A stretch of DNA of 64,000 nt, taken from NCBI GenBank assembly GCA_029865125.1, contig JAOUHN010000001.1:1360-65359 (forward strand), read 5' to 3'. Of the stretch, positions 236-61,910 are shown piece by piece. The DNA is from Candidatus Moraniibacteriota bacterium (lineage in GTDB: Bacteria; Patescibacteriota; Minisyncoccia; Moranbacterales; UBA9337). The notes beneath the pieces were generated by a model. It searched no databases. It was not told the DNA's origin and was given only the letters and a program-made list of their open reading frames with translations. The translations under genes were made by a program, and so were the position numbers. The stretch's first letter is position 1; the number at the start of each line of letters is the position of its first letter.

Positions 236-400
236 GTTCATGTTTCATGTTATACGCTTTATGTTATATGTTTCATGCTATATGTTTCATGTTATACGCT
301 TTATGTTATATGTTTCATGTTACGTGTTTCATGTCGTGTGTTTCATGCTTCATATTTCATGCTCCATGCTCCATGTTCCATGCATTATATATTTCCCGAT
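236..400. repeat. Heptanucleotide tandem array (ATGYTHY)n, about 24 units
   Basis: ATGTTTC ATGTTAT ACGCTTT ATGTTAT ATGTTTC ATGCTAT ... ATGCTCC ATGCTCC ATGTTCC. The period is 7, so it cannot be coding. The 222-431 ORF is an artefact of this repeat. Confidence 0.85.
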
Positions 401-9427: not shown

Positions 9428-9512
9428 ACATGTCCCATGCCCTATGTTTCGTGTTCCATGCTATATGTTCTATGCTCCATGTTATGTGCTGCATGCTCCA
9501 TGCTCTACGCTG
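9428..9512. repeat. Heptanucleotide (ATGYYYY)n array, about 12 units
   Basis: ATGTCCC ATGCCCT ATGTTTC GTGTTCC ATGCTAT ATGTTCT ATGCTCC ATGTTAT GTGCTGC ATGCTCC ATGCTCT. Confidence 0.8.
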
Positions 9513-10427: not shown

Positions 10428-10769
10428 CTACTTCAAGCTTTCCAATATCTTAAAAATTACCCCGTCTAAATTATTATTTATTTCGTTATTCCAAAATCTC
10501 AAAACTTTTAAACCTTTTCTCTGCAAATACTCAGTTCTTTCAGTATCATAATTCTGATGCAAATCTTTTTTATGTTGACAGCCATCAATTTCAATAACCA
10601 AACCCTTCTCTTTGCAATAAAAATCTACAATATATTTCCCAAATGAATGCTGTCTCCGAAATTTATATCCTAATTGCTTTCTTTTCAATCTTGACCATAA
10701 AACTATTTCTTGGGGAGTAGAATTGTTTCTTAGTTTTTTTCTCAATTGTTTAGCCTTGCAATTATTCAT
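10428..10769 (-). CDS. DUF559 / Vsr-like endonuclease-domain protein
   Basis: 113 aa: ...LWSRLKRKQLGYKFRRQHSFGKYIVDFYCKEKGLVIEIDGCQHKK...RTEYLQRKGLKVLRFWNNEI matches the DUF559 pattern. Flanked by GC-rich hairpins. Confidence 0.75.
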   Translation of the reverse strand: MNNCKAKQLRKKLRNNSTPQEIVLWSRLKRKQLGYKFRRQHSFGKYIVDFYCKEKGLVIEIDGCQHKKDLHQNYDTERTEYLQRKGLKVLRFWNNEINNNLDGVIFKILESLK

Positions 10770-20525: not shown

Positions 20526-20575
20526 GGCATAGAACATAGAGCACGTAACATACAGCACAGAACATGAAACGCGCA
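20526..20575. repeat. Heptanucleotide array, reverse orientation (GRAACAT-type units)
   Basis: AGAACAT AGAGCAC GTAACAT ACAGCAC AGAACAT GAAACGC is the reverse complement of the ATGYTHY family. Confidence 0.75.
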
Positions 20576-20920: not shown

Positions 20921-21154
20921 AACGATTTTTTCTTACTTTTAATTAGTGAGCGCGTGATAAACATTTTTCCTTAAAATACGTTCACTTGGATATGTCAATT
21001 TGCGCAAAAATCGCCAACCCAAAGAAACCAACTAATGAAAAACTTACACTTACTCTTACGCGTACAGTATACACTATCGCGCCTCAAAAGTCAATGGCTA
21101 CGCCCACTGGCAATGTCTGAATTCAAATACTCGTACTTATTACATTCCCAGTGA

Positions 21155-21190
21155 TTCATGCTATATGTTCTATGTTATATGCTACGTGAC
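21155..21190. repeat. Heptanucleotide array (short)
   Basis: ATGCTAT ATGTTCT ATGTTAT ATGCTAC. Confidence 0.6.
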
Positions 21191-23756: not shown

Positions 23757-23792
23757 CGGAACATGAAACACATAACATAAAACATGCACCAC
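23757..23792. repeat. Heptanucleotide array, reverse orientation
   Basis: GGAACAT GAAACAC ATAACAT AAAACAT GCACCAC. Confidence 0.6.
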
Positions 23793-23867
23793 AAAATTCA
23801 TTGACACGCTAACAAATTTACCCTATATTATCAACAATCCCAAAACTCAGCTGATAAGAGGTGCTCT

Positions 23868-26253: not shown

Positions 26254-26325
26254 CACTGTCATCCTGAACTTGCTTTGCCTCGCCTTGGGCGGGATTCAGG
26301 ATCCCGTCATAACAGCGCAACTCAG
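26254..26325. repeat. REP-like dispersed element, copy A (TGTCATCCTGAAC...TTCAGGATCCC hairpin)
   Basis: Shares the core with the copies at 45288, 47305 and 54318; this copy has a 22-bp insertion in the loop. Confidence 0.8.
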
Positions 26326-29388: not shown

Positions 29389-29462
29389 AGCGGGGTGGAG
29401 CAGTCTGGCAGCTCGTGTGGCTCATAACCACAAGGTCGCAGGTTCGAATCCTGCCCCCGCAA
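29389..29462 (+). tRNA. tRNA with CAU anticodon (Met or Ile2-lysidine; A1·A72 mismatch, A11:U24)
   Basis: Acceptor AGCGGGG/CCCCGCA, anticodon arm TGTGG-CTCATAA-CCACA, T-arm GCAGG-TTCGAAT-CCTGC. Confidence 0.8.
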
Positions 29463-29518
29463 CACGAAGAATTGAGAGTGAGTTTTACAAGGAGTGAAAA
29501 ATACTCCTGGGCATATTT

Positions 29519-29592
29519 GCCAGGGTAGCTCAGTTGGTTAGAGCGCGGGACTCATAAGCCCGAGGTCGTGAGTTCAACTCTCACTCCTGGTA
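29519..29592 (+). tRNA. Second tRNA with CAU anticodon
   Basis: GCCAGGG-TA-GCTC-AGTTGGTTA-GAGC-G-CGGGA-CTCATAA-GCCCG-AGGTC-GTGAG-TTCAACT-CTCAC-TCCTGGT-A. Confidence 0.8.
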
Positions 29593-29595
29593 CAA

Positions 29596-29668
29596 AAAAC
29601 ATACAGCACATAACATGCAACATGCAGCAATTTTTTTGTTCTATGTTTCATGAGATGTGTTTCATGAA
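29596..29668. repeat. Heptanucleotide array between tRNAs (both orientations)
   Basis: AAAACAT ACAGCAC ATAACAT GCAACAT GCAGCAA ... ATGTTTC ATGAGAT GTGTTTC ATGAATA. Confidence 0.7.
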
Positions 29669-29675
29669 TAAACAC

Positions 29676-29749
29676 GGGGGCGTAGCTCAGCTGGTTAGAG
29701 CGATTGCCTGTCACGCAATAGGTCGAGGGTTCGAGTCCCTTCGCTCCCG
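29676..29749 (+). tRNA. tRNA-Asp (anticodon GUC)
   Basis: GGGGGCG-TA-GCTC-AGCTGGTTAG-AGC-G-ATTGC-CTGTCAC-GCAAT-AGGTC-GAGGG-TTCGAGT-CCCTT-CGCTCCC-G; discriminator G. Confidence 0.85.
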
Positions 29750-29945
29750 CAGAAGAAACTTGAAACAGAGTCGCCTTAGCTCTGTTTTAAGTTTTCTATT
29801 AGACAGAAAAGGATGAAAAGGGTATTTTAAAAAGACACCTGATCCTTTTCTTCAAGCATCCATAAGGTAAAAGCTCTTTGTAATAGAAAAGGTTTTTAGT
29901 TAGTAGCTATTGTCATCCTTTATTATCAACAGTGAAAAGACACAT

Positions 29946-30428
29946 TTAGCAAAAAATGCTTCCCATTATGTTCTGAAAAAAAACTAACTTATTTTTATAA
30001 AAAACCTGCTCCTTAGCAATGAAATAGCTCCAGTCACCATTTTTTTCAAAGACGTATTTCCAATCCTCAATTTCATATTTTTCAGGACCTCTAAGAGGAT
30101 TATTTTCATCAGTATTTCTAAGGGCTTCTTTTAGAAAAGCATAAGATTGATCTGGTTTTACTAAATCGTTTTCAATAAATTGTCCTTGATAAGCCATTGT
30201 CCAAAATGGCTTATTTTTATAGAAAACAATCTCTTTTCCGGGTGGAAAAATGTGGCCAGAATAGCTATCGTAATAAAGCCAATCATCTTTGGAAAATGAA
30301 TATTCAGTGTGTCCCAACATCTTTACCTTCTTACATCTGGTTAATGCTCTGTCTTCATCGGTTCCGGCATAAGTTTTTGAATGAGCTAAAAATAAAAATT
30401 TTTTAAACGCAGCTTCTTTTTTTATCAT
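29946..30428 (-). CDS. Hypothetical protein (160 aa, Trp/Tyr-rich)
   Basis: ORF only; divergent from the radical SAM operon. Confidence 0.45.
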   Translation of the reverse strand: MIKKEAAFKKFLFLAHSKTYAGTDEDRALTRCKKVKMLGHTEYSFSKDDWLYYDSYSGHIFPPGKEIVFYKNKPFWTMAYQGQFIENDLVKPDQSYAFLKEALRNTDENNPLRGPEKYEIEDWKYVFEKNGDWSYFIAKEQVFYKNKLVFFQNIMGSIFC

Positions 30429-30554
30429 TGACTTAGATTGAATTTAATGCTATATTTTTTTATCGAGCTCCTTAAGCCCGATAGTATCTTAATAATAGAA
30501 TAAACGTGAGAATAAGGCAATAAGCCAAAAACAAAGTCTTAGAGGAGATGATTT

Positions 30555-31523
30555 ATGACGAAACGAAAGAATGTGGTATGGAACTTAACTAAACTGTGTC
30601 CATTTGGATGCACCTTCTGCTGTGTGTCAGCAACTTACGTTAAAGGTTTTAAACAAGTTTTTTCTGTCAATGATGATACGCCTGTGATTGAAAGTGAATT
30701 ATCCTTCAACAAACAGTTGCAAGTAATTGATCAATTGGATGCTGAAAAGTTTAGGATCGACTTTTCAGGAGGAGATGTATTGATAAATCCACGAAACATT
30801 GATCTAATTATCTTGGCGTCTGAAAAATTTGGAGCGGAAAATATTGGGTTAAGCATCCCTGGCACATTTACAACTCCAAATAATTTAAGTAAGTTAACTG
30901 GAAGGATTAATGATGTTGAGATTACGATGGATACTACGCCGGATATAAATTATTCTTATCGTCCGCTAAATTATGCTGAACACGCTTCTGATGCTATAGC
31001 AAGATTGGTAGACGCAGGATTTTTTGTTGGAGTACAAACCGTGTTGCGCAGGGAAAATATGTTTAAAGAGACGATTAAAAGACTACACAAGCACTTATTG
31101 CTGCTTGGGGTAAAAAAATGGAGTTTTTTAAAATTTGCTCCTGTGGGAAGAGGCTATAGTAAGTGTGAAAATCATCCCAGTGACGAAGAATACCGTAAAT
31201 TTTCTGACGTCATAAAACACGTAACCCTGAACTCAATGATTGAGGTACATTATCAATACCTGATGCCGTTGAGTCCTGCAAGAGACTTTTATTGTCGTGC
31301 AATTAAAGATTCTATCGGCATTGCGCCAGACGGGACTGTAAGTTCTTGCTTTTGGGCTTTTAATCAAAATGGAAAACCTTTTGATGATGTTGTGTTAGGC
31401 AAGGTTCCAGAGGATAACATCCTTGATATTTTGAAATCTGAAAAAGCAAGAGAATGGCTTTCATATGGTAAAACCAAAAATTATTGTCCCCTTAAAAAAA
31501 TTCTCAGAGGAGGAGTGATATGA
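30555..31523 (+). CDS. Radical SAM enzyme (CxxxCxxC) with C-terminal Cys-containing SPASM/twitch-like region
   Basis: N-terminal LCPFGCTFCC (Cx3Cx2C), FSGGDVL (GGE-like SAM motif), and C-terminal SSCFWAF...NYCP. 322 aa. Confidence 0.75.
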   Translation: MTKRKNVVWNLTKLCPFGCTFCCVSATYVKGFKQVFSVNDDTPVIESELSFNKQLQVIDQLDAEKFRIDFSGGDVLINPRNIDLIILASEKFGAENIGLSIPGTFTTPNNLSKLTGRINDVEITMDTTPDINYSYRPLNYAEHASDAIARLVDAGFFVGVQTVLRRENMFKETIKRLHKHLLLLGVKKWSFLKFAPVGRGYSKCENHPSDEEYRKFSDVIKHVTLNSMIEVHYQYLMPLSPARDFYCRAIKDSIGIAPDGTVSSCFWAFNQNGKPFDDVVLGKVPEDNILDILKSEKAREWLSYGKTKNYCPLKKILRGGVI

Positions 31524-32494
31524 ATTATGCATTGATGACTTTTCTTTACAATTTTTTTGACCTAGGTTGCTTTTTATGGAGCATGCAACTTTTCGGACTA
31601 AAAGAAGGGTCCATTATTTTTGTCTTTGCAAAAATTGGAAGACTCTCTGTAGAAACCATCAAAGTAAAGTCGTTCCACATTGTTTTTGGAGTATTCTTCT
31701 TCGGAATAGTTTTGGGAATAATCTCCGTGTACACTACCTGGTTATTTACTTGCCTAGGAGCCCCTTTTGTTATATTTGGCATATCCAAAATAAGGGAATA
31801 TTTTGGGATATTAGAAAAACCGCCCAGAAGGTACAAAATACTATCCAGAATGGTAGGGTTTTGTTTGGCTCCACTATTTAACTTTTGGGTTTTAATTCCA
31901 TTTTTTTGCTATTTAGCTTTTAGCTTGCGCAATCAAAATGAGATTAAAAGTGAGAGGAGAGCACCCCTTTTCCCTTATTTAGAACAACACGAATGGCAAT
32001 ATACATTACTAATCACTCATCAGATTCATTATTTTGCATACGCATTTCTGGTGCCGTACACAGCATGTGCCATTTTCAACGTAAATATCATGTTTGCTGG
32101 AATCATTTTTTTTATTGGTTGGGGCGCATATAACCTGTACGAAAAAATTCTAGCGCATAAATTAAAATACGTTGCTTATGGGCACTTCATTGCCGGATTT
32201 GGAGTTTGCATCATATTATTCTTTCAGCAAAGCTTACTGGCGTTAATTATCGGTTGGTTTATAACTGGAATTGGTGGTGGAACTTTTTATATTATAAAAA
32301 GTAAGCTACCAGATGACATCGGGAAAGCAGAAGTTGTAGAGCTTTGGGGTCAGTTACTCGGAATGGCCTTATTTGCTATAGGAGTAAATTTCGCAAATAG
32401 TAGTTATCTCTATTTTTCTGCTATAATATTTGCAACCGCAACATCCGTAATCGCATTATTTTTAGAGAAAGACTATGTCAGAAATAACAGCTAA
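31520..32494 (+). CDS. Polytopic membrane protein (8-10 TM helices), unknown function
   Basis: Start overlaps the upstream stop (ATGA) and its 3' end overlaps the next gene by 20 nt, indicating translational coupling. Confidence 0.6.
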   Translation: MNYALMTFLYNFFDLGCFLWSMQLFGLKEGSIIFVFAKIGRLSVETIKVKSFHIVFGVFFFGIVLGIISVYTTWLFTCLGAPFVIFGISKIREYFGILEKPPRRYKILSRMVGFCLAPLFNFWVLIPFFCYLAFSLRNQNEIKSERRAPLFPYLEQHEWQYTLLITHQIHYFAYAFLVPYTACAIFNVNIMFAGIIFFIGWGAYNLYEKILAHKLKYVAYGHFIAGFGVCIILFFQQSLLALIIGWFITGIGGGTFYIIKSKLPDDIGKAEVVELWGQLLGMALFAIGVNFANSSYLYFSAIIFATATSVIALFLEKDYVRNNS

Positions 32495-33275
32495 AACAAT
32501 AATTACCAAGAGTAAGCTTCCAGAAGTGGACTACTGTTTTAATCCCTACATCGGCTGTACTCATCGTTGTGCCTATTGCTATGCCAGGTTTATGAGTAGA
32601 TTCACTGGGCACACAAACGAAAAATGGGGCACCTATCTGGATTGGAAGATTAATGCCCCAGAACTCTTAAGAGAGGAGGCTTCTCGAATCAAAAAAAAGG
32701 GCGGTGTGGTTATTCTTGGCAGTGTAACTGATTGCTATCAACCCATAGAAAGCAAGCTTGAGTTGACACGTAAGTGTCTGGAAGTGTTTTTGGAATACCA
32801 GATCCCAATTTCTATCCTTACAAAAAGTAGTCTGGTTGAGCGAGATTTTGACTTACTCAGTCAGCTTAAATATTGTGAGATAGGGATTAGCTTAAGTATT
32901 CTTAACAAAGAACAACAAAAAGCTCTCGAGCCCGGAGCTTCGAGTCCAATGGAGCGAATTAGGGTTCTGAAAAGAGCTTTCGATTTAGGCTTAAACACCT
33001 ATGCCTTTATTGGGCCAATTCATCCATTCCTTGGAGAAACGGAGAAGGTTATTAGGGAAGTTTGTCCATATGTTAATTTCATTATGGGTGAAATTCCAAA
33101 TCTCCGTTGTGGCAACTGGAAAGACTTTAGTCAAACATTGAAAGAGCTAAAGATTAATCCAGTAGATTATAGAAAAGTCGCCGAAAGCGATGAATTTTAT
33201 AAAAAAGCCGATGGACTGCTTAAAAAATTGTGCGAAGAATGTTCCGTAGAATATAGAGGCACATTTAAGCACTAG
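32475..33275 (+). CDS. SplB-family (DNA-repair-photolyase-like, COG1533-type) radical SAM protein
   Basis: FNPYIGCTHRCAYCYARF matches the NPYxGCxxxCxYC[YF]A signature. 266 aa. Confidence 0.75.
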   Translation: MSEITAKTIITKSKLPEVDYCFNPYIGCTHRCAYCYARFMSRFTGHTNEKWGTYLDWKINAPELLREEASRIKKKGGVVILGSVTDCYQPIESKLELTRKCLEVFLEYQIPISILTKSSLVERDFDLLSQLKYCEIGISLSILNKEQQKALEPGASSPMERIRVLKRAFDLGLNTYAFIGPIHPFLGETEKVIREVCPYVNFIMGEIPNLRCGNWKDFSQTLKELKINPVDYRKVAESDEFYKKADGLLKKLCEECSVEYRGTFKH

Positions 33276-33290
33276 GCTCTTAAATTTAAC

Positions 33291-33335
33291 GCTCCCCAGT
33301 AAGATGTATCTTACTGGGGAGTTTTATTTTTGGGT
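33291..33335 (+). terminator. Operon terminator (CCCCAGTAAGAT-GTA-TCTTACTGGGG plus T-rich tail)
   Basis: A 12-bp perfect stem. Confidence 0.7.
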
Positions 33336-33714
33336 AATCAATAAAACAAATCTGTCGAGGTTAATAGCTTAAAATTTTCTTTATTTTCAAGCAAAAAAGT
33401 TCGAACTTCGTTCACTTGTCCCCGCAAACGAATTGAGGCTTTTTTAAGCCTCTTTTTTGATACAAAATTTTGGACAAAGATACAGACTCGAATTTTTAAA
33501 GCGAACAAGAAGAAAGAAACTCTGATTCAAAAAATGAGCCTAATTTATTGATTTCCTCTTGTTTTTTTGAAAAATTCCTTCATACTAAAGGCGCTAAGTT
33601 AGTCAGAGAAGCACGGCTCAAAAAGACAACTAACTCCTTAAAGCAAATGACTGAAAAGAGGCTGAAAAATGAGTGCCATAATAATAGTGTGCTTAAAACA
33701 CAGCAGTAACATTT

Positions 33715-34203
33715 ATGACTATTAAAAAATATATAATTTCTGCAGGATTGATATTTAATAAAAAAAATCAAATTCTTTTAGTCAAACACACCCCAGAGTT
33801 TGGATCGGATTATTATTGGACTGTCCCTGGGGGCTCGGCTAACGAGAATGAAGATAAGATAACCGCTCTGTTAAGAGAAGTCAAAGAGGAAACAGGAGTT
33901 GATATATGTAAAATAAGCAAACTTGTTTACAAAGTTAAGCACATTAATTACAAAAGAGAGTGGGATCATGACATTTACACTTATAAAATTGATAATTGGA
34001 AGGGTGACTTGGTGATAAATGATCCCGATAATGACACAGTTGATTTGAAATGGTTTGATATAGATAAAGCAATTAATGTGCTTAAGAAAAATCCATTTAG
34101 AGTTATAAAAGAGCCGTTGATTGATTATCTAATTGGAAAAGAACGAATAAAAAACTGGGATTATTTAGAAGATAAAAACGGAAAAATAGCGCGCATTTTA
34201 TAA
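33715..34203 (+). CDS. NUDIX hydrolase
   Basis: Nudix box GGSANENEDKITALLREVKEETGV (GX5EX7REVXEEXG). 162 aa. Confidence 0.85.
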   Translation: MTIKKYIISAGLIFNKKNQILLVKHTPEFGSDYYWTVPGGSANENEDKITALLREVKEETGVDICKISKLVYKVKHINYKREWDHDIYTYKIDNWKGDLVINDPDNDTVDLKWFDIDKAINVLKKNPFRVIKEPLIDYLIGKERIKNWDYLEDKNGKIARIL

Positions 34204-34364
34204 AAAGCCTATTTTAGGGATAGTTTTGTTTAAGTGCTAGCTTATTTTTTATTCCCCCAAAACCAACCTCTCTCACAACAAAAAAGTGAATAAGATGAAA
34301 TACATAGGTAACACTATAAATTTAGTAAAATTAAAAAATAATAACTTAAAATAATTAAAATTCC

Positions 34365-34562
34365 ATACCTGTCATTCCGGAAAATATATTTTTCAGTCTG
34401 AGTAATCGAAAACTTGAAAAATAGTTTATCCGGAATCTACGCTAACAATAGCCCCAGAATTACTATATCATCTCAGATTATATACAGCGTAGATTCCGGA
34501 TAAGTTAATTTCTTTGAGCTCGATTACTCGCTCAAGAAATTATACTTTCCGGAATGACAAGA
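34365..34562. repeat. Roughly 200-bp nested imperfect palindrome (MITE-like long hairpin)
   Basis: Perfect outer inverted repeat TGTCATTCCGGAAA (34368-34381 with 34546-34559). Perfect inner inverted repeat TATCCGGAATCTACGCT (34428-34444 with 34485-34501). Arms are colinear with equal 43-nt spacers of about 65% identity (GAGTAATCGA / TCGATTACTC). Confidence 0.8.
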
Positions 34563-34633
34563 TAAAGAGAAAGGCTTCAATTAATTCTTAAACTTAGTAT
34601 ACCATGCGTGCTATTTTAATACTCAAGAGAAAA

Positions 34634-34807
34634 TGAAGGTGATTGCTAATCTCACGGACAAATATCTGAATGAAAAAAGCATAACACCTTCTAAAGTTTT
34701 AGAGTTCATGGGATGCGCACCTGCGGCCATAAAGCAAATTGAATCCGGAATCACCCTCCAGGATCCCTATGTAAAGTTTCTTATGCTGATCGTTAAAAGT
34801 GATTAAA
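34634..34807 (+). CDS. Possible small ORF (57 aa) next to the palindrome
   Basis: MKVIANLTDKYLNEKSITPSKVLEFMGCAPAAIKQIESGITLQDPYVKFLMLIVKSD. Contains a CAGGATCCC repeat-core fragment. Weak support. Confidence 0.2.
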
Positions 34808-35055
34808 ATCACACGACAAATACAAATCTTTACTTCCACCTAGAACATAGATTAACATCTTAGTTCCAGGCGGTTTTTTATTTCCCAAAAACCAATTTCT
34901 CACACAACAAAAAAGGCTTCGGGGTTTGAATTCGGGGTTTGACGTTTAGCATTGACATTTCTTCTTTTTTGGCCTATCCTGGACTATCTGATTTAATTCC
35001 ACCACACCGCGCAATACTTTATCAATCCAATTATTTCTGCTACCATATAAACATT

Positions 35056-36216
35056 ATGAAAACTTTTTTACTTCGTTATCAAAAAAAAATCGTCTTCTCT
35101 GCGCTAGCTTTATTATTGCTTGCGCTTTTTGGCATTGGCGCTTTTTGGGTTGATTCCAAAACTCACCCTTTTTCTTCCAAGCAACAATCCATTGAAAATA
35201 CTCAGGTCGATTCACCCAGCATAACTCCTGAAATTGAGATCCTCCCCTCAACACCCGAAGCTCCTGAAGAATCAATGGATGCTCCAACTGAAGAATTAGT
35301 GGAAGAATCAACCGAGGAGACTACTCTTGAAAATGAAGAGGGAGAAGAAGAATTGGCAACCACAGAGGAGCTAGAAATGTTGCCACCTGTCACAAAAACT
35401 CATGGATCAGACGAACTTCGAATTGGTTTTTTGACGGATCTTCATGCAAGATCCAATGCTGGGATTCCAGAATCTAATCGAGTCATCAAGCCATTCTTTA
35501 AAAACATAATCACTTCTTTTGTCACACAAATGAATAATGATTTCGGGGCTGACTTCTTGCTTCTCAATGGAGATGTAATTGAAGGAACAGGAAGAAATGC
35601 CACTGTTGGAATGGGCGAGTTGAAATCACTGAAAAAATTGTTCGATCTCACTCAAATCAAAAAATATTGGGTCATCGGGAATCACGATGTTCGCGCTGTG
35701 AACAAAAAACAATGGCAGCAAGCACTTGAAATTGACTATTTGTACGACTACTTTGATAAAGGTGACTACAGAATCATCATGCTGGATAGTAATTTTGATG
35801 ACCTAGACAAAAACATCGCACCTGGAGATTATTTTACTCGAGGAGGTGTTTCTCAAAAACAACTTCAATGGCTAGAAAGAGCTTTGGACACAAAAAAAAC
35901 AAAGATTGTTTTCATGCACCACCCTCCGCTTAAAAATATCGGGATTCATCCTGATTCAGGATTACTCTACAATGCCCCTGAGCTTCAAGAGATCTTTTCA
36001 AAAAACGAAGTAACCGCTGTATTTTTCGGACATCTTGAATATTCCTATCAAAGCGAAGTGAATGGTGTCAAATATTTCATGATTCCCGGCGCCACAAAAA
36101 ATGAGAACTACCAAGGAACTTTTGCAGAAATCAAAATCAAAAACCAGACTATTGAACTAACTCTCAACTATCTCGACAAAAGTGGATTCTATAAATCAAA
36201 AAAGGTTTTTAACTAA
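35056..36216 (+). CDS. Calcineurin-like metallophosphoesterase with N-terminal signal-anchor
   Basis: Motifs GFLTDLHAR (GDxH), LLNGDVIEG (GDxx), VIGNHDV (GNH[DE]), FMHHPP and FGHLEY. Start taken at MKTFLL (ATG 35056). Confidence 0.8.
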   Translation: MKTFLLRYQKKIVFSALALLLLALFGIGAFWVDSKTHPFSSKQQSIENTQVDSPSITPEIEILPSTPEAPEESMDAPTEELVEESTEETTLENEEGEEELATTEELEMLPPVTKTHGSDELRIGFLTDLHARSNAGIPESNRVIKPFFKNIITSFVTQMNNDFGADFLLLNGDVIEGTGRNATVGMGELKSLKKLFDLTQIKKYWVIGNHDVRAVNKKQWQQALEIDYLYDYFDKGDYRIIMLDSNFDDLDKNIAPGDYFTRGGVSQKQLQWLERALDTKKTKIVFMHHPPLKNIGIHPDSGLLYNAPELQEIFSKNEVTAVFFGHLEYSYQSEVNGVKYFMIPGATKNENYQGTFAEIKIKNQTIELTLNYLDKSGFYKSKKVFN

Positions 36217-42615: not shown

Positions 42616-42660
42616 TTCATATTATTAAATTTTATTTTTCTCGTCAAGAAGGCTCTGGAA

Positions 42661-42692
42661 ACATGAAGCATAGAGCATAAAACATGGAACAC
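42661..42692. repeat. Heptanucleotide array (reverse orientation)
   Basis: ACATGAAGCATAGAGCATAAAACATGGAACAC. Confidence 0.55.
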
Positions 42693-42773: not shown

Positions 42774-42860
42774 ATAACTTTACGGACTTTATGGACTTTA
42801 CGGACTTTATGGACTTTACGGACTTTACGGACTTCCAGGACTTTATGGACCTTACGAACC
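42774..42860. repeat. 9-bp tandem repeat (ACTTTAYGG), about 9 units
   Basis: actttacgg actttatgg actttacgg actttatgg actttacgg actttacgg acttccagg actttatgg accttacga. Confidence 0.9.
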
Positions 42861-45287: not shown

Positions 45288-45350
45288 TTGCTTGTCATCC
45301 TGAACTTGGTTCAGGATCCCGTAATACTAGCACGCACTCAGTTTTACTTC
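45288..45350. repeat. REP-like dispersed element, copy B
   Basis: CTTGTCATCCTGAACTTGGTTCAGGATCCCGTAATACTAGCACGCACTCAG. Confidence 0.85.
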
Positions 45351-47304: not shown

Positions 47305-47352
47305 CACTGTCATCCTGAATTTAGTTCAGGATCCCCAAATACTAGCACCCAA
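47305..47352. repeat. REP-like dispersed element, copy C
   Basis: CACTGTCATCCTGAATTTAGTTCAGGATCCCCAAATACTAGCACCC. Confidence 0.85.
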
Positions 47353-49645: not shown

Positions 49646-50083
49646 AAATATACGAATTACGAATCCGCTACAAATATACAAATGTACGAATTACTAATTT
49701 AAAATTATTTTTTTCAATCTCTTTCTTTTCACAAAGAGTTTTTAAATAAAAATTTTCACAAAAAATCCCGAGGGAGAGATGATTTTCCCAAAAAATGCGT
49801 GAGTCAGCACAAGTGTTATACGTATGTAAACGGAGTGGAGCATTTTTTGTTAGAAAATCGCGCCCGCCCCGTCTTTCGCGAATGACAGGGCCCGAGCATT
49901 TTTTTGAAAAATTTTATTTAAAAACCCTACCATCATCCTACCTCAAACCACCCATCAAATCAACAGCGACAGCAGTCAAACCCTATCGACAAGCACTTTT
50001 GAATATGCTAATCTACATAAAGAAAGTATCGATTGCATATGAAAAAATAATTTACCAATCAAACATTAAAATTACAAAATAAG

Positions 50084-54317: not shown

Positions 54318-54368
54318 TTTGTCATCCTGAGCTTGATTCAGGATCCCTAAGTCCTAGCACACACTCGG
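54318..54368. repeat. REP-like dispersed element, copy D
   Basis: TTTGTCATCCTGAGCTTGATTCAGGATCCCTAAGTCCTAGCACACACTCGG. Confidence 0.85.
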
Positions 54369-54470
54369 CACCATACTGAGATTCTGAAACAAATTCAGAA
54401 TGACACAAAGATGCACGGTTCACACAAAAAACAAATTTCACTAAATAAACTTAGTATTTAATAAAACAAT

Positions 54471-56949: not shown

Positions 56950-57155
56950 ACAAATGAAGCGAGCATCTTTTTCATAACCATTCCCTCCTCAGAAAATTTT
57001 GCCCAAAAACGGGCGTTAAACTTTGCTCAAAACGAGCCTTTCTGTTACGAACCTAAAACAACTTTTTTGAAATTATCTTGGGTTCGTAGCAGAAGCCTGA
57101 AAGAAAATATATGATTTTCTCGGATAAATATTTTTTGATTCAAAGAACTTTTCAA
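56950..57155. repeat. Roughly 175-bp direct repeat, copy 1 (contains a conserved hairpin)
   Basis: About 85% identical to 61736-61910; the 3' 50 nt are identical (AAATATATGATTTTCTCGGATAAATATTTTTTGATTCAAAGAACTTTTC). Confidence 0.9.
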
Positions 57156-60895: not shown

Positions 60896-61732
60896 TTATC
60901 CTTTTACAACTACCCCGGCAAACCCACGAGTGGGATTGCCATAGGCATTTCCGATCCGATTTGGGAGTGAGTTTCCCCACCCCATAAACCGATTGACGAT
61001 CTCGGGCGTCGTATGTCCGCCGAGAACAATTTTCTTGTTCCCGGTTGGGTTCCGGTCGCGATCGACATCGTCGATCATGGCAATGTAGGCCTCGCCCGTT
61101 ACCAATGCCGCCTCAGGCAGTTCATCGATTAAACCGGCCTCGCGAAGATCGCGGACACCGTCCACGACCTTTGCCTCCTGAAGCTTGTCTTTGGCCTTGG
61201 CGATAAACTCCCGAATTTTTTCTTCATCTGCCTTTTGGGCAGTTCGAGGGTTAGTGGCATAAAATGCCGCCTTCCCCTTGATGCGAAACTCTAAAAACTC
61301 CTCCGGGTCAATCCCAGAGCAACGCCCAGCATAGGCATCCGCTGGGCAATGGTCACCGGCAGCAACCAATTCCAGCTGATGAGTACGCTCCACACCAAGG
61401 ATGGCGCAAAGCTGCCCCAAGGAGGAAGCGTCCCAGTACCGGTCGGCCCCGAGACCATAACCGAAATCGCCAGGATTGTGGTGGTCGCAAATGCCAACCA
61501 CCGACATGGAGCCGGCACAGTTCGGGTTGACCTCGAATATAATTACCTGTTGAACAAGAGCGAAATCACCCTCGTCAACAACGTAACCATCTGCCTGGTA
61601 AGCATTGCCCCCGTGGACTTTCGTCCCGGAGACAGTTGCTGTGGCCAGCACACATCCCGCTTCACGGGCCACATTGCGTGCTGCTTGCTCTTCGTTATCT
61701 TGGCCACCGAAAACTACCATTGTATTTTTCAT
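60896..61732 (-). CDS. Hypothetical protein, high GC
   Basis: 278 aa with roughly 57% GC. No recognised motif (contains CDHHNPGD). Confidence 0.5.
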   Translation of the reverse strand: MKNTMVVFGGQDNEEQAARNVAREAGCVLATATVSGTKVHGGNAYQADGYVVDEGDFALVQQVIIFEVNPNCAGSMSVVGICDHHNPGDFGYGLGADRYWDASSLGQLCAILGVERTHQLELVAAGDHCPADAYAGRCSGIDPEEFLEFRIKGKAAFYATNPRTAQKADEEKIREFIAKAKDKLQEAKVVDGVRDLREAGLIDELPEAALVTGEAYIAMIDDVDRDRNPTGNKKIVLGGHTTPEIVNRFMGWGNSLPNRIGNAYGNPTRGFAGVVVKG

Positions 61733-61735
61733 CGC

Positions 61736-61910
61736 TTTTCCTCCTCGGGAAATATTTGCCCAAAAGCGGGCGTTAATTTTGCTCGAAAATGAGCTCTTCT
61801 ACTACGAGCCCAAAACAACTTTTTTAAAATTATCTTGAGTTCGTAGTAGAAGCTTGAAGGAAAATATATGATTTTCTCGGATAAATATTTTTTGATTCAA
61901 AGAACTTTTC
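61736..61910. repeat. Roughly 175-bp direct repeat, copy 2
   Basis: See copy 1. The internal hairpin shows compensatory changes between copies. Confidence 0.9.

What the first reader, a model, noticed from the sequence alone, without database searches (positions are those of the whole stretch)
34365..34562. Unique roughly 200-bp nested palindrome (MITE-like or long-hairpin RNA)
The outer 14-bp inverted repeat TGTCATTCCGGAAA and inner 17-bp inverted repeat TATCCGGAATCTACGCT are perfect. The arms between them are colinear, equally spaced (43 nt) and about 65% identical, giving an about 90-bp-arm hairpin with an about 40-nt loop. The outer repeat shares TGTCATYC with the REP-like family. It lies in a roughly 700-bp noncoding stretch between the NUDIX and phosphoesterase genes, next to a possible 57-aa ORF. 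Candidates are a miniature inverted-repeat transposable element, a recombination or att site, or a long structured ncRNA.
Basis: seen in the sequence. Interest (0 to 1): 0.65.

Follow-up and report, generated by a model that had tools for sequence, protein, structure and literature searches.

The report
Inverted pair of TGTC-tagged hairpin repeats
The 190-bp palindrome is two inverted copies of a widespread bacterial hairpin repeat (the CGTC/TGTC-tagged REP, or Ssn-related motif, family) that small GIY-YIG nucleases recognise on single-stranded DNA; here it is a long-stemmed variant in a Candidatus Moranbacteria genome, not a one-off structure.

Summary
The palindrome is real: arms 34370-34443 and 34486-34559, perfect 14-nt outer and 17-nt inner repeats, fold z = -10.7. 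It is not one long hairpin by design. Each arm is itself a ~68-nt hairpin module, 5'-TGTC|ATTCCGGAA...T(A)TCCGGAAT|CTA-3', and the two modules lie inverted with the TGTC tags outward.

A pattern scan found more than 115 such modules across many phyla. Their inner stems vary but covary. The unforced base after the palindrome is C in 92%, then Y, then R, as in the Neisseria NTS motif. Tags-outward dimers are the usual arrangement (65, against 14 others).

The only recurrent neighbouring gene is a ~94-aa GIY-YIG nuclease of the Ssn type described by Chenal et al. 2025. It either abuts a dimer or sits between the two modules.

The same 190-bp dimer, with sharp TGTCAT...ATGACA ends, occurs twice on another contig. 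That contig very probably belongs to the same MAG, and one copy there lies 10 nt from the ssn gene. The dimer also occurs in a related single-cell genome.

Verdict: a long-stem heterodimer of the known CGTC/TGTC-tagged REP (Ssn-related motif) family, outside its published size range and search motif. Mobility and cleavage are inferred, not shown.

The parts
34370..34559 (.). Whole 190-bp heterodimer: two inverted hairpin modules with the TGTCAT tags at the outer ends.
   Evidence: Inverted repeat. Similarity to copies in L100 and L127 starts exactly at TGTCAT and stops at ATGACA. Identity to those copies is 83-88%.
34370..34440 (+). Left module ('A type'): tag TGTC 34370-34373, palindrome 34374-34437 with a bulged A at 34429, tail CTA 34438-34440.
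   Evidence: Covariance model R1 scores it 79 bits. It folds as a single hairpin. Near-identical singlets occur in L034, L045 and L100.
34489..34559 (-). Right module ('B type') on the minus strand: tag TGTC 34559-34556, palindrome 34555-34492, tail CTA 34491-34489.
   Evidence: R1 scores it 83 bits. It folds as a single hairpin. Relatives occur in L036, L028 and L100.
34444..34485 (.). 42-nt spacer between the inner repeat arms, conserved among copies of this dimer.
   Evidence: Alignment A3 of four dimers. Spacer length falls within the family range: 54 nt between palindromes here, family median 35.
26257..26303 (+). Short TGTC-tagged hairpin TGTCATCCTGAAC...ATTCAGGATC, with an insert in the loop.
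   Evidence: weak end-to-end R1 match.
45293..45318 (+). Short TGTC-tagged hairpin TGTCATCCTGAACTTGGTTCAGGATC.
   Evidence: (family D8).
47308..47333 (+). Short TGTC-tagged hairpin TGTCATCCTGAATTTAGTTCAGGATC.
54320..54405 (.). Short-type dimer: 54320-54345 (+) and 54380-54405 (-), tags outward, 34-nt spacer. Same layout as the long dimer.

Best explanation
**What it is.** The feature is a heterodimer of two long-stem members of the CGTC/TGTC-tagged REP superfamily. That superfamily is the same thing as the NTS / 'Ssn-related motif' hairpins. Each module has four parts:
- an unpaired 5' tag, TGTC;
- a stem that starts with AT (ATTCCGGA/TCCGGAAT), followed by a bulged purine;
- a variable extended stem and loop;
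- an unpaired 3' tail, C-Y-R.

The two modules are inverted, with the tags outward, around a conserved spacer.

**How it most likely works (inferred).** When the DNA is single-stranded (replication, repair or incoming DNA), each strand extrudes its module as a hairpin. The genome's own Ssn-type GIY-YIG nuclease (MDH4330519.1) then binds the hairpin foot and cuts a few nucleotides 5' of the tag. This is what Neisseria SsnA does on NTS.

**How the dimer spreads (inferred).** The dimer is a dispersed, discretely bounded unit. It probably arose from, or travels with, the module-ssn-module unit.

**Shown versus inferred.**
- Shown here: anatomy, family membership, covariation, dimer rule, gene association and copies elsewhere.
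- Inferred: binding or cleavage in this organism, and any mobility.
For: **The module family**
- Anatomy of the two modules.
- More than 115 loci in many phyla carry TGTCATTCCGGAA-N35-60-TCCGGAAT. About 7 are expected by chance for equal base frequencies (my arithmetic).
- The unconstrained inner parts fold as hairpins: 85 of 126 have z < -2, and 99 of 126 form single hairpins.
- On 22 Patescibacteria modules, 85.6% of cells pair against 70.6% in shuffles. 15 of 25 pairs show compensatory changes. Slid controls pair at 26-59%.
- Positions not forced by the search match NTS ...ATCYRG: +1 is C in 92%, +2 is Y in 98%, +3 is R in 71%.

**Links to the published family**
- Canonical NTS-type hairpins (for example CGTCATTCCCGCGTATGCGGGAATCCAG) are dimer partners of TCCGGA-type modules in L029, L009, L035 and L069.
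- Tags-outward dimers number 65, against 8, 3 and 3 for the other arrangements.

**The gene association**
- The only recurrent neighbouring gene with this association is a 94-97-aa GIY-YIG protein.
- It abuts a dimer in L004, L100 and L127, or lies between the two modules in L007 and L072.
- Its Y7/Y18/E65 match the spacing of the catalytic Y6/Y17/E64 of the 94-aa Neisseria SsnA (PMC11893778).

**Copies in what is probably the same genome**
- Two more copies of this dimer (86-88% identical) lie on a contig from the same two samples, one of them 10 nt from ssn.
- The two proteins carry neighbouring GenBank accessions, MDH4329960.1 and MDH4330519.1. Tetranucleotide correlation with the window is r = 0.986.

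**Literature**
- PMC11893778 describes Ssn and NTS.
- PMC3733652 describes CGTC/TGTC REPs, which occur mostly as inverted dimers with conserved 20-100-bp spacers.
Against: - The published SRM search motif finds nothing in the window, and it rejects these modules even with a long loop allowed.
- Stem and loop lengths (~25 bp and 12-19 nt; module ~68 nt) lie outside the described ranges: 8-9-bp stem with 4-5-nt loop, or 20-50 nt overall.
- No ssn gene lies within the 74 kb around the element. The link to ssn in this genome rests on assigning a second contig to the same MAG.
- No binding, cleavage, transcript or insertion polymorphism was measured.
- As single-stranded DNA, the dimer's lowest-energy fold (-44.1 kcal/mol) pairs the two tags with each other. 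The two-hairpin form is -31.0 kcal/mol. The pairing could hide the cleavage determinants.
- Conservation of the head and foot among the scanned loci was forced by the search pattern.
Confidence: 0.78

Rival explanations
1. RNA-level element. The dimer is transcribed with the NUDIX gene or the downstream unit, and it acts as a long RNA hairpin (3'-end stabiliser, terminator or processing site), as proposed for many REPs.
For: - It folds very stably as RNA on both strands.
- It lies between two genes transcribed in the same direction, 166 nt after the NUDIX stop.
- PMC3733652 argues that many REPs sit downstream of genes and may function as RNA.
Against: - There is no credible Rfam match: the only hits are far below gathering scores and are to eukaryotic miRNA or snoRNA models.
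- The conserved features are the strand-specific 5' TGTC tag and the 3' C. These are the determinants of single-stranded DNA recognition by SsnA, which does not bind RNA (PMC11893778).
- In a dimer, each strand carries one sense module. This symmetry fits DNA better than one transcript.
- The same dimer sits in different transcriptional contexts.
- No T-run follows the element.
Confidence: 0.12
2. Classical MITE: an internally deleted derivative of an insertion sequence, moved by a DDE-type or Y1 (RAYT) transposase. In the RAYT case it would be a REPIN in the strict sense.
For: - It has terminal inverted repeats, sharp ends, and copies at unrelated places.
- The dimer layout resembles REPINs (PMC3116915).
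Against: - There is no target-site duplication. The flanks are ACC/AGA in the window and differ at each copy.
- The tag is TGTC, not the GTAG of RAYT-associated REPs (PMC3733652).
- Clustering all ORFs of 115 loci gave no recurrent transposase. Apart from generic ABC-type ATPases (7 loci, no positional link to the hairpins), the only recurrent family was GIY-YIG.
- The viral-contig scan found none.
Confidence: 0.05
3. A neutral local duplication-inversion, or a recombination (att or dif-like) site specific to this locus.
For: - It is a single long-type copy in the 64-kb window.
- A 42-nt direct repeat brackets the region.
Against: - The same dimer occurs at other loci and in other genomes, and the module occurs in more than 100 loci.
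- There is no switch in GC skew at the site.
- No integrase or phage genes are nearby.
Confidence: 0.02

Closest known systems
NTS / Ssn-related motifs (SRM) with Ssn GIY-YIG single-strand nucleases (Chenal et al. 2025, PMC11893778)
   Same: - 5' (C/T)GTC tag, stem starting ATTCC...GGAAT, C-Y-R directly after the palindrome, and many copies.
- The hairpins flank a ~94-aa single-domain GIY-YIG gene.
- Canonical NTS hairpins pair with TCCGGA-type modules in dimers.
   Different: - The stem is about 25 bp with a bulged purine and a 12-19-nt loop, giving a ~68-nt module.
- The stem is AT-rich after ATTCC, so the published search motif does not match.
- The host is a Patescibacteria genome.
- No biochemistry was done here.
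CGTC-tagged REP superfamily, including dRS3 and Rickettsia RPE-4/6 (Di Nocera et al. 2013, PMC3733652)
   Same: - TGTC variant of the tag, stem beginning AT, and a 3-nt unpaired tail (consensus CCA; CTA here).
- The repeats occur mainly as inverted dimers, often heterodimers, with conserved 20-100-bp spacers that can fold into one large stem-loop.
   Different: - The described stems are 8-9 bp and the loops 4-5 nt.
- They were described in 5 phyla, mostly Alphaproteobacteria.
- They were said to lack a dedicated enzyme.
REPINs and RAYTs (Bertels and Rainey 2011, PMC3116915)
   Same: - Two inverted hairpin repeats plus a spacer form one dispersed unit.
- Singlets look like truncated dimers.
- A single-copy gene is flanked by the repeats.
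   Different: - The tag is GTAG, not TGTC.
- The enzyme is a Y1 transposase, not a GIY-YIG nuclease.
- No RAYT was seen in any locus.
IS200/IS605 family
   Same: - Recognition of subterminal hairpins on single-stranded DNA, with cleavage next to the hairpin.
- No target-site duplication.
   Different: - Both cleavages occur on one strand, and the element has asymmetric ends.
- The enzyme is a HUH Y1 transposase.
- In the dimer here, each strand carries only one sense module.
Neisseria intergenic mosaic elements and Correia-type MITEs
   Same: - Short intergenic units bounded by inverted repeats.
- Gene cassettes are bracketed by repeats, as in L127 compared with L100.
   Different: - Correia elements have 26-nt terminal repeats, a TA duplication and promoter or IHF sites.
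- None of these features is seen here.

Membership tests
CGTC/TGTC-tagged REP superfamily (PMC3733652) | Unpaired 5' tag CGTC (or TGTC) next to the stem. | tested here: met
   TGTC lies at 34370-34373 (+) and at 34559-34556 (-).
CGTC/TGTC-tagged REP superfamily (PMC3733652) | Stem begins with complementary A-T residues; short unpaired 3' tail (consensus CCA). | tested here: met
   The stem is ATTCCGGA/TCCGGAAT and the tail is CTA on both modules. Across the family, the tail is C 92%, Y 98%, A 59%.
CGTC/TGTC-tagged REP superfamily (PMC3733652) | Stem of 8-9 bp and loop of 4-5 nt. | tested here: not met
   After the 8-9-bp foot and a bulged A, the stem continues to about 25 bp, and the loop is 12-19 nt.
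CGTC/TGTC-tagged REP superfamily (PMC3733652) | Mostly inverted dimers with a 20-100-bp, often conserved, spacer. | tested here: met
   There are 65 tags-outward dimers against 14 of other kinds, with a median spacer of 35 nt. The window spacer is conserved in L100 and L127.
Ssn-related motif (PMC11893778) | Matches the degenerate search sequence HGTCWYN(0-2)YYVSBRHN(0-5)WNVSBRGN(0-2)RNCYNB. | tested here: not met
   The motif gives 0 matches in the window. The modules fail it even with the loop widened to 70 nt.
Ssn-related motif (PMC11893778) | Functional determinants: three conserved nucleotides 5' of the palindrome and a C immediately 3' of it. | tested here: met
   Both modules have GTC before the palindrome and C after it. 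The C was not part of the search pattern, and it is present in 92% of 85 hairpin-forming modules.
Ssn-related motif (PMC11893778) | Hairpins flank a single-domain ~94-aa GIY-YIG (cd10448) gene, and the genome encodes that gene. | tested here: met
   - Adjacency is seen in L004, L007, L029, L072, L100 and L127.
- The protein matches Pfam GIY-YIG at E = 4e-14.
- An ssn gene with the same dimer lies on a contig from the same samples, with a neighbouring GenBank accession.
- Assignment to the same MAG is inferred.
- The cd10448 assignment itself could not be run.
Ssn-related motif (PMC11893778) | Bound and cut as single-stranded DNA by the cognate Ssn; not cut as duplex DNA or RNA. | not testable with these tools
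   This needs the purified protein and oligonucleotides.
REPIN/RAYT | GTAG-type tag and an associated Y1 (RAYT) transposase gene flanked by the repeats. | tested here: not met
   The tag is TGTC. No recurrent transposase-like ORF family appears in 115 loci plus the window.
MITE (classical) | Terminal inverted repeats plus a target-site duplication, derived from an autonomous insertion sequence. | tested here: inconclusive
   - The terminal repeats and sharp ends are met.
- No duplication is seen at four copies.
- The module-ssn-module units in L007 and L072 could be the autonomous form, but transposition is unproven.

The most novel reading that the evidence does not exclude
The dimer is the gene-less (MITE-like) form of a minimal mobile element whose only gene is ssn: TGTCAT-hairpin, ssn, hairpin-ATGACA, as seen in L007 and L072. 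On this reading, the GIY-YIG single-strand nuclease mobilises or copies tagged hairpin dimers in Patescibacteria, and dimers also mediate gain and loss of gene cassettes, as in L127 compared with L100. That would be a transposition or recombination system built on a GIY-YIG nuclease and DNA hairpins, distinct from RAYT/REPIN and IS200/IS605.
Probability: 0.25. Interest if true: 0.75.

Novelty: new variant of a known kind. Interest (0 to 1): 0.4.

Why it matters
- **It removes a false lead.** The 'unique' palindrome is an ordinary member of a repeat family that now has an enzyme attached to it.
- **It widens the family.**
  - The CGTC/TGTC-tagged repeats (Ssn-related motifs) extend to candidate-phyla-radiation bacteria.
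  - They also extend to hairpins two to three times longer than described, which published motif searches miss.
- **It offers natural test substrates.** SsnA tolerates loop extensions in vitro, so these long-stem forms can be used to probe how Ssn nucleases read the hairpin foot.
- **It gives a testable question.** The layouts with ssn between the modules and with cassettes between dimers provide concrete cases for asking whether Ssn drives the spread of these repeats.

Tried and rejected
- **Rfam.** The whole window at gathering scores, and the region at E up to 10, gave only tRNAs and sub-threshold chance hits.
- **Invertible-switch idea.** It was prompted by a Logan contig ending at 34445. 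I rejected it because the end is explained exactly by a 31-mer (34416-34446) shared with the other dimer copies.
- **Empty-site test through NUDIX homologues.** The closest are 63% identical and share no downstream synteny.
- **Empty-site test through the metallophosphoesterase.**
  - One syntenic relative (L133) has a 207-bp upstream spacer with no dimer.
  - Its upstream gene differs, so this is only weak evidence.
- **Search for ssn in the window plus 10 kb upstream.** tblastn and an HMM found nothing.
- **ORF57 (34633-34806).**
  - It has no Pfam or NCBIfam match.
  - It has no relatives in any fetched locus.
  - The gene caller did not call it on the source contig.
  - I left it as uncertain.
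- **Replication origin or terminus.** No global switch in GC skew.
- **Phage or att-site idea.** 0 matches in viral contigs.
- **Solved structure for the GIY-YIG protein.** None found.
- **Metagenome hit L128.** It is an unrelated GC-rich palindrome inside coding sequence, with no TGTC tags.
- **Supplementary data of the Ssn paper.** Not held, so the Neisseria SsnA sequence could not be compared directly.

Full report
**1. The observation**

The repeat finder reports arms 34370-34443 and 34486-34559 (74 nt, 76% complementary) with 42 nt between them. The 14-nt outer and 17-nt inner repeats are perfect and occur nowhere else in the window.

As RNA, the region folds at -74.8 kcal/mol on the plus strand and -89.0 on the minus strand. 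Both have z = -10.66, and no shuffle did as well.

Four details need correcting:
- The arms are 74 nt, not about 90.
- The middle segments are 58% identical, not about 65%.
- The non-coding gap is 852 bp.
- Each arm is itself a palindrome (I3 and I4).

The object is therefore two inverted hairpin modules of about 68 nt:
- left: TGTC|ATTCCGGAAAATATATTTTTCA...TGAAAAATAGTTTATCCGGAAT|CTA;
- right, on the other strand: TGTC|ATTCCGGAAAGTATAATTTCTT...AAGAAATTAACTTATCCGGAAT|CTA.

**2. Source organism and surroundings**

The window is a piece of a metagenomic contig (ENA ERZ27296412 k141_1572073, 81.8 kb). Its proteins are deposited as Candidatus Moranbacteria, a Patescibacteria lineage.

The element lies between a NUDIX gene (33715-34203) and a metallophosphoesterase gene (35056-36216). 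An uncalled 57-codon ORF with no detectable relatives lies between the element and the metallophosphoesterase gene.

**3. A large family**

I scanned one genome per species for TGTCATTCCGGAA-N35-60-TCCGGAAT. About 7 hits are expected for equal base frequencies (my arithmetic).

The loci come from Patescibacteria, Ignavibacteria, Alpha- and Gammaproteobacteria, Bdellovibrionales, Bacteroidota and other groups. A minority look like chance hits inside genes, for example the Chryseobacterium loci.

Evidence from positions the pattern did not constrain:
- The inner segments fold as hairpins: 85 of 126 have z < -2, and 99 of 126 form single hairpins.
- On 22 Patescibacteria modules, a 25-pair hairpin is kept in 85.6% of cells, against 70.6% after shuffling. 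15 pairs show compensatory changes, and slid controls give 26-59%.
- The base right after the palindrome is C in 92%. The next is C or T in 98%, and the third is A or G in 71%.
- A purine bulge before the 3' TCCGGAAT is nearly invariant.

**4. The window has short relatives**

A generic scan looked for GTCAT, an 8-nt stem, its complement, then C. It finds 9 sites in the window, against 1.4 in shuffles. Seven of them are convincing.

Those seven are the two long modules and five short hairpins of the form TGTCATCCTGAAyTTnGTTCAGGATCCC. One pair of short hairpins forms an inverted dimer at 54320-54405.

A covariance model built from the long modules ranks these five short hairpins immediately after the long modules.

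**5. Dimers are the rule**

Across the fetched loci, neighbouring hairpins lie tags-outward 65 times. The other arrangements occur 8, 3 and 3 times. The median spacer is 35 nt. The window's arrangement, with a 54-nt spacer, is typical.

**6. The associated gene**

I clustered every ORF of the 115 loci and the window. Only two families recurred across more than four loci. One is generic ABC-type ATPases (7 loci), with no positional link to the hairpins. The other is a 94-97-aa single-domain GIY-YIG protein.

Each confident GIY-YIG copy touches hairpins:
- next to a dimer in L004, L100 and L127;
- between the two inverted modules in L007 and L072.

A literature search with the tag sequence led to Chenal et al. 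2025 (PMC11893778). Their findings:
- Ssn nucleases (GIY-YIG cd10448; the Neisseria enzyme is 94 aa) bind the NTS hairpin CGTCATTCCCGCGMAVGCGGGAATCYRG only as single-stranded DNA.
- They cut a few nucleotides upstream.
- Cleavage depends on the three bases before the palindrome. Binding depends most on the C after it.
- The loop is dispensable and can be extended.

Di Nocera et al. 2013 (PMC3733652) had already defined the CGTC/TGTC-tagged REP superfamily. Its features are a stem starting AT, a CCA tail, and mostly inverted dimers (often heterodimers) with conserved 20-100-bp spacers. They found no dedicated enzyme for it.

Three observations tie the present modules to that family:
- They share the tag, the stem foot and the tail.
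- In several genomes they are dimer partners of canonical NTS-type hairpins.
- The Patescibacteria protein has Y7/Y18/E65, the same spacing as the catalytic Y6/Y17/E64 of SsnA.

**7. More copies of this very dimer**

A metagenome scan for the inner arms found contig L127, which carries two copies. The single-cell genome AM-311-N19 has one copy (L100) plus singlets in L034, L036 and L045.

Alignment of the four dimers shows similarity switching on exactly at TGTCAT and off at ATGACA. The flanks are unrelated and the spacer is conserved. Identity to the window copy is 83-88%.

In L127, one copy ends 10 nt from the stop of an ssn gene.

That ssn protein is encoded in the same two samples as the window (ERZ27296412 and SRR7133727). 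Three further points suggest the same MAG:
- Its GenBank accession, MDH4330519.1, is 559 away from that of the window's NUDIX protein, MDH4329960.1. Both are labelled Candidatus Moranbacteria.
- The contig's tetranucleotide profile correlates with the window at r = 0.986.
- The short-read contigs of SRR7133727 break exactly where 31-mers are shared between the window copy and the L127 copies.

I infer that the genome carries at least three copies of the dimer and its own ssn.

**8. Mechanism**

What is shown here: the anatomy, the family, the covariation, the dimer rule, the gene association and the dispersed copies.

What is taken from the literature: hairpin recognition on single-stranded DNA and cleavage 5' of the tag.

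What is inferred: that the Moranbacteria Ssn acts on these long-stem modules, and that the dimer spreads as a unit.

A caveat applies. With DNA parameters, the whole strand prefers a cloverleaf-like fold in which the two tags pair (-44.1 kcal/mol). The two separate hairpins give -31.0 kcal/mol. The dimer may therefore be partly protected from cutting.

**9. What does not fit, and what failed**

- The published SRM motif does not match these modules, and their size is outside the described ranges.
- No ssn lies within 74 kb of the element.
- No clean empty site was found. NUDIX relatives lack synteny. The one syntenic relative (L133) has a 207-bp spacer without the dimer, but a different upstream gene.
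- Nothing in viral contigs, Rfam or GC skew points to a phage site, a known RNA or a replication landmark.

**10. Verdict**

The feature is a real, non-random structure, and an ordinary one. It is a long-stem heterodimer of the TGTC-tagged REP (Ssn-related motif) family in a Moranbacteria genome.

It is new only as a variant: its length, its AT-rich stem, its Patescibacteria host, and the fact that published motif searches miss it.

The most novel reading still open is that ssn-bearing units and gene-less dimers form an autonomous and non-autonomous pair of a GIY-YIG-driven mobile element.

Noticed in passing
window 34245-34286 and 34874-34915: A 42-nt direct repeat (88% identical) brackets the AT-rich stretch, the dimer, the 57-codon ORF and a hairpin plus T-run (34838-34880). 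The second copy sits where a syntenic relative (L133 about 1690-1730) has a terminator followed by TTTTTTTATTTCC upstream of the orthologous metallophosphoesterase. That relative's spacer is 207 bp, with no dimer and no ORF. This suggests that a 629-bp segment was inserted or duplicated here.
   Followed up: partly
L127 2372-3441 compared with L100 7462-7649: These are orthologous loci (spermine-synthase-like gene ... ssn). The single-cell genome has one dimer. The Moranbacteria contig has two 97%-identical dimers bracketing an extra 226-aa gene of unknown function. This looks like a gene cassette gained or lost between repeats.
   Followed up: partly
window 34445 and 26264; L130 end: Short-read (Logan, k = 31) contigs of SRR7133727 end exactly at 31-mers shared between dimer copies. 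One contig also starts inside the short hairpin at 26257-26303. These repeats fragment assemblies of this genome.
   Followed up: yes
window 239-383, 9452-9511, 20527-20565; also 21151-21188, 23760-23796, 29598-29666, 42660-42692: Intergenic tandem arrays of 7- or 14-nt units containing CATG (for example ATGTTTCATGTTAT) recur on both strands. Their function is unknown.
   Followed up: no
window 42777-42856: A tandem array of a 9-nt unit, ACTTTACGG/ACTTTATGG, with 8.9 copies.
   Followed up: no
window 34633-34806: - A 57-codon ORF, followed by a terminator-like hairpin and T-run.
- It has no Pfam or NCBIfam match and no relatives in any fetched locus.
- The gene caller did not call it on the source contig.
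- It contains TCCGGAATC and CAGGATCCC, the 3' halves of the two hairpin types.
   Followed up: partly
window about 10428-10769 and L125 1278-1631: Two small DUF559/MTES_1575 (Vsr-like endonuclease fold) genes lie within 20 kb of each other. This may be another multi-copy selfish nuclease family.
   Followed up: no
window 29389-36216: A cluster of three tRNAs (29389-29749) is followed by a plus-strand island: three radical SAM/SPASM-type genes, NUDIX and the metallophosphoesterase. The island sits in a region that otherwise has minus-strand genes and negative GC skew.
   Followed up: no
window 49735-49764 / 49899-49928: A 30-nt inverted repeat (90% complementary), 134 nt apart, encloses TGTCATTCGCGAAA (49874-49887, minus strand). 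This may be a degenerate tagged hairpin.
   Followed up: no
window 56968-57153 and 61725-61910: A 186-nt direct repeat, 83% identical, 4.8 kb apart.
   Followed up: no
L029 6250-7939 (Wenzhouxiangellaceae MAG): A dense array of alternating TCCGGA-type and canonical NTS-type hairpins surrounds an ssn gene. When translated, it yields the familiar junk peptides (…SFRKR…, …IPAYAGMT…) seen in many hypothetical proteins.
   Followed up: partly
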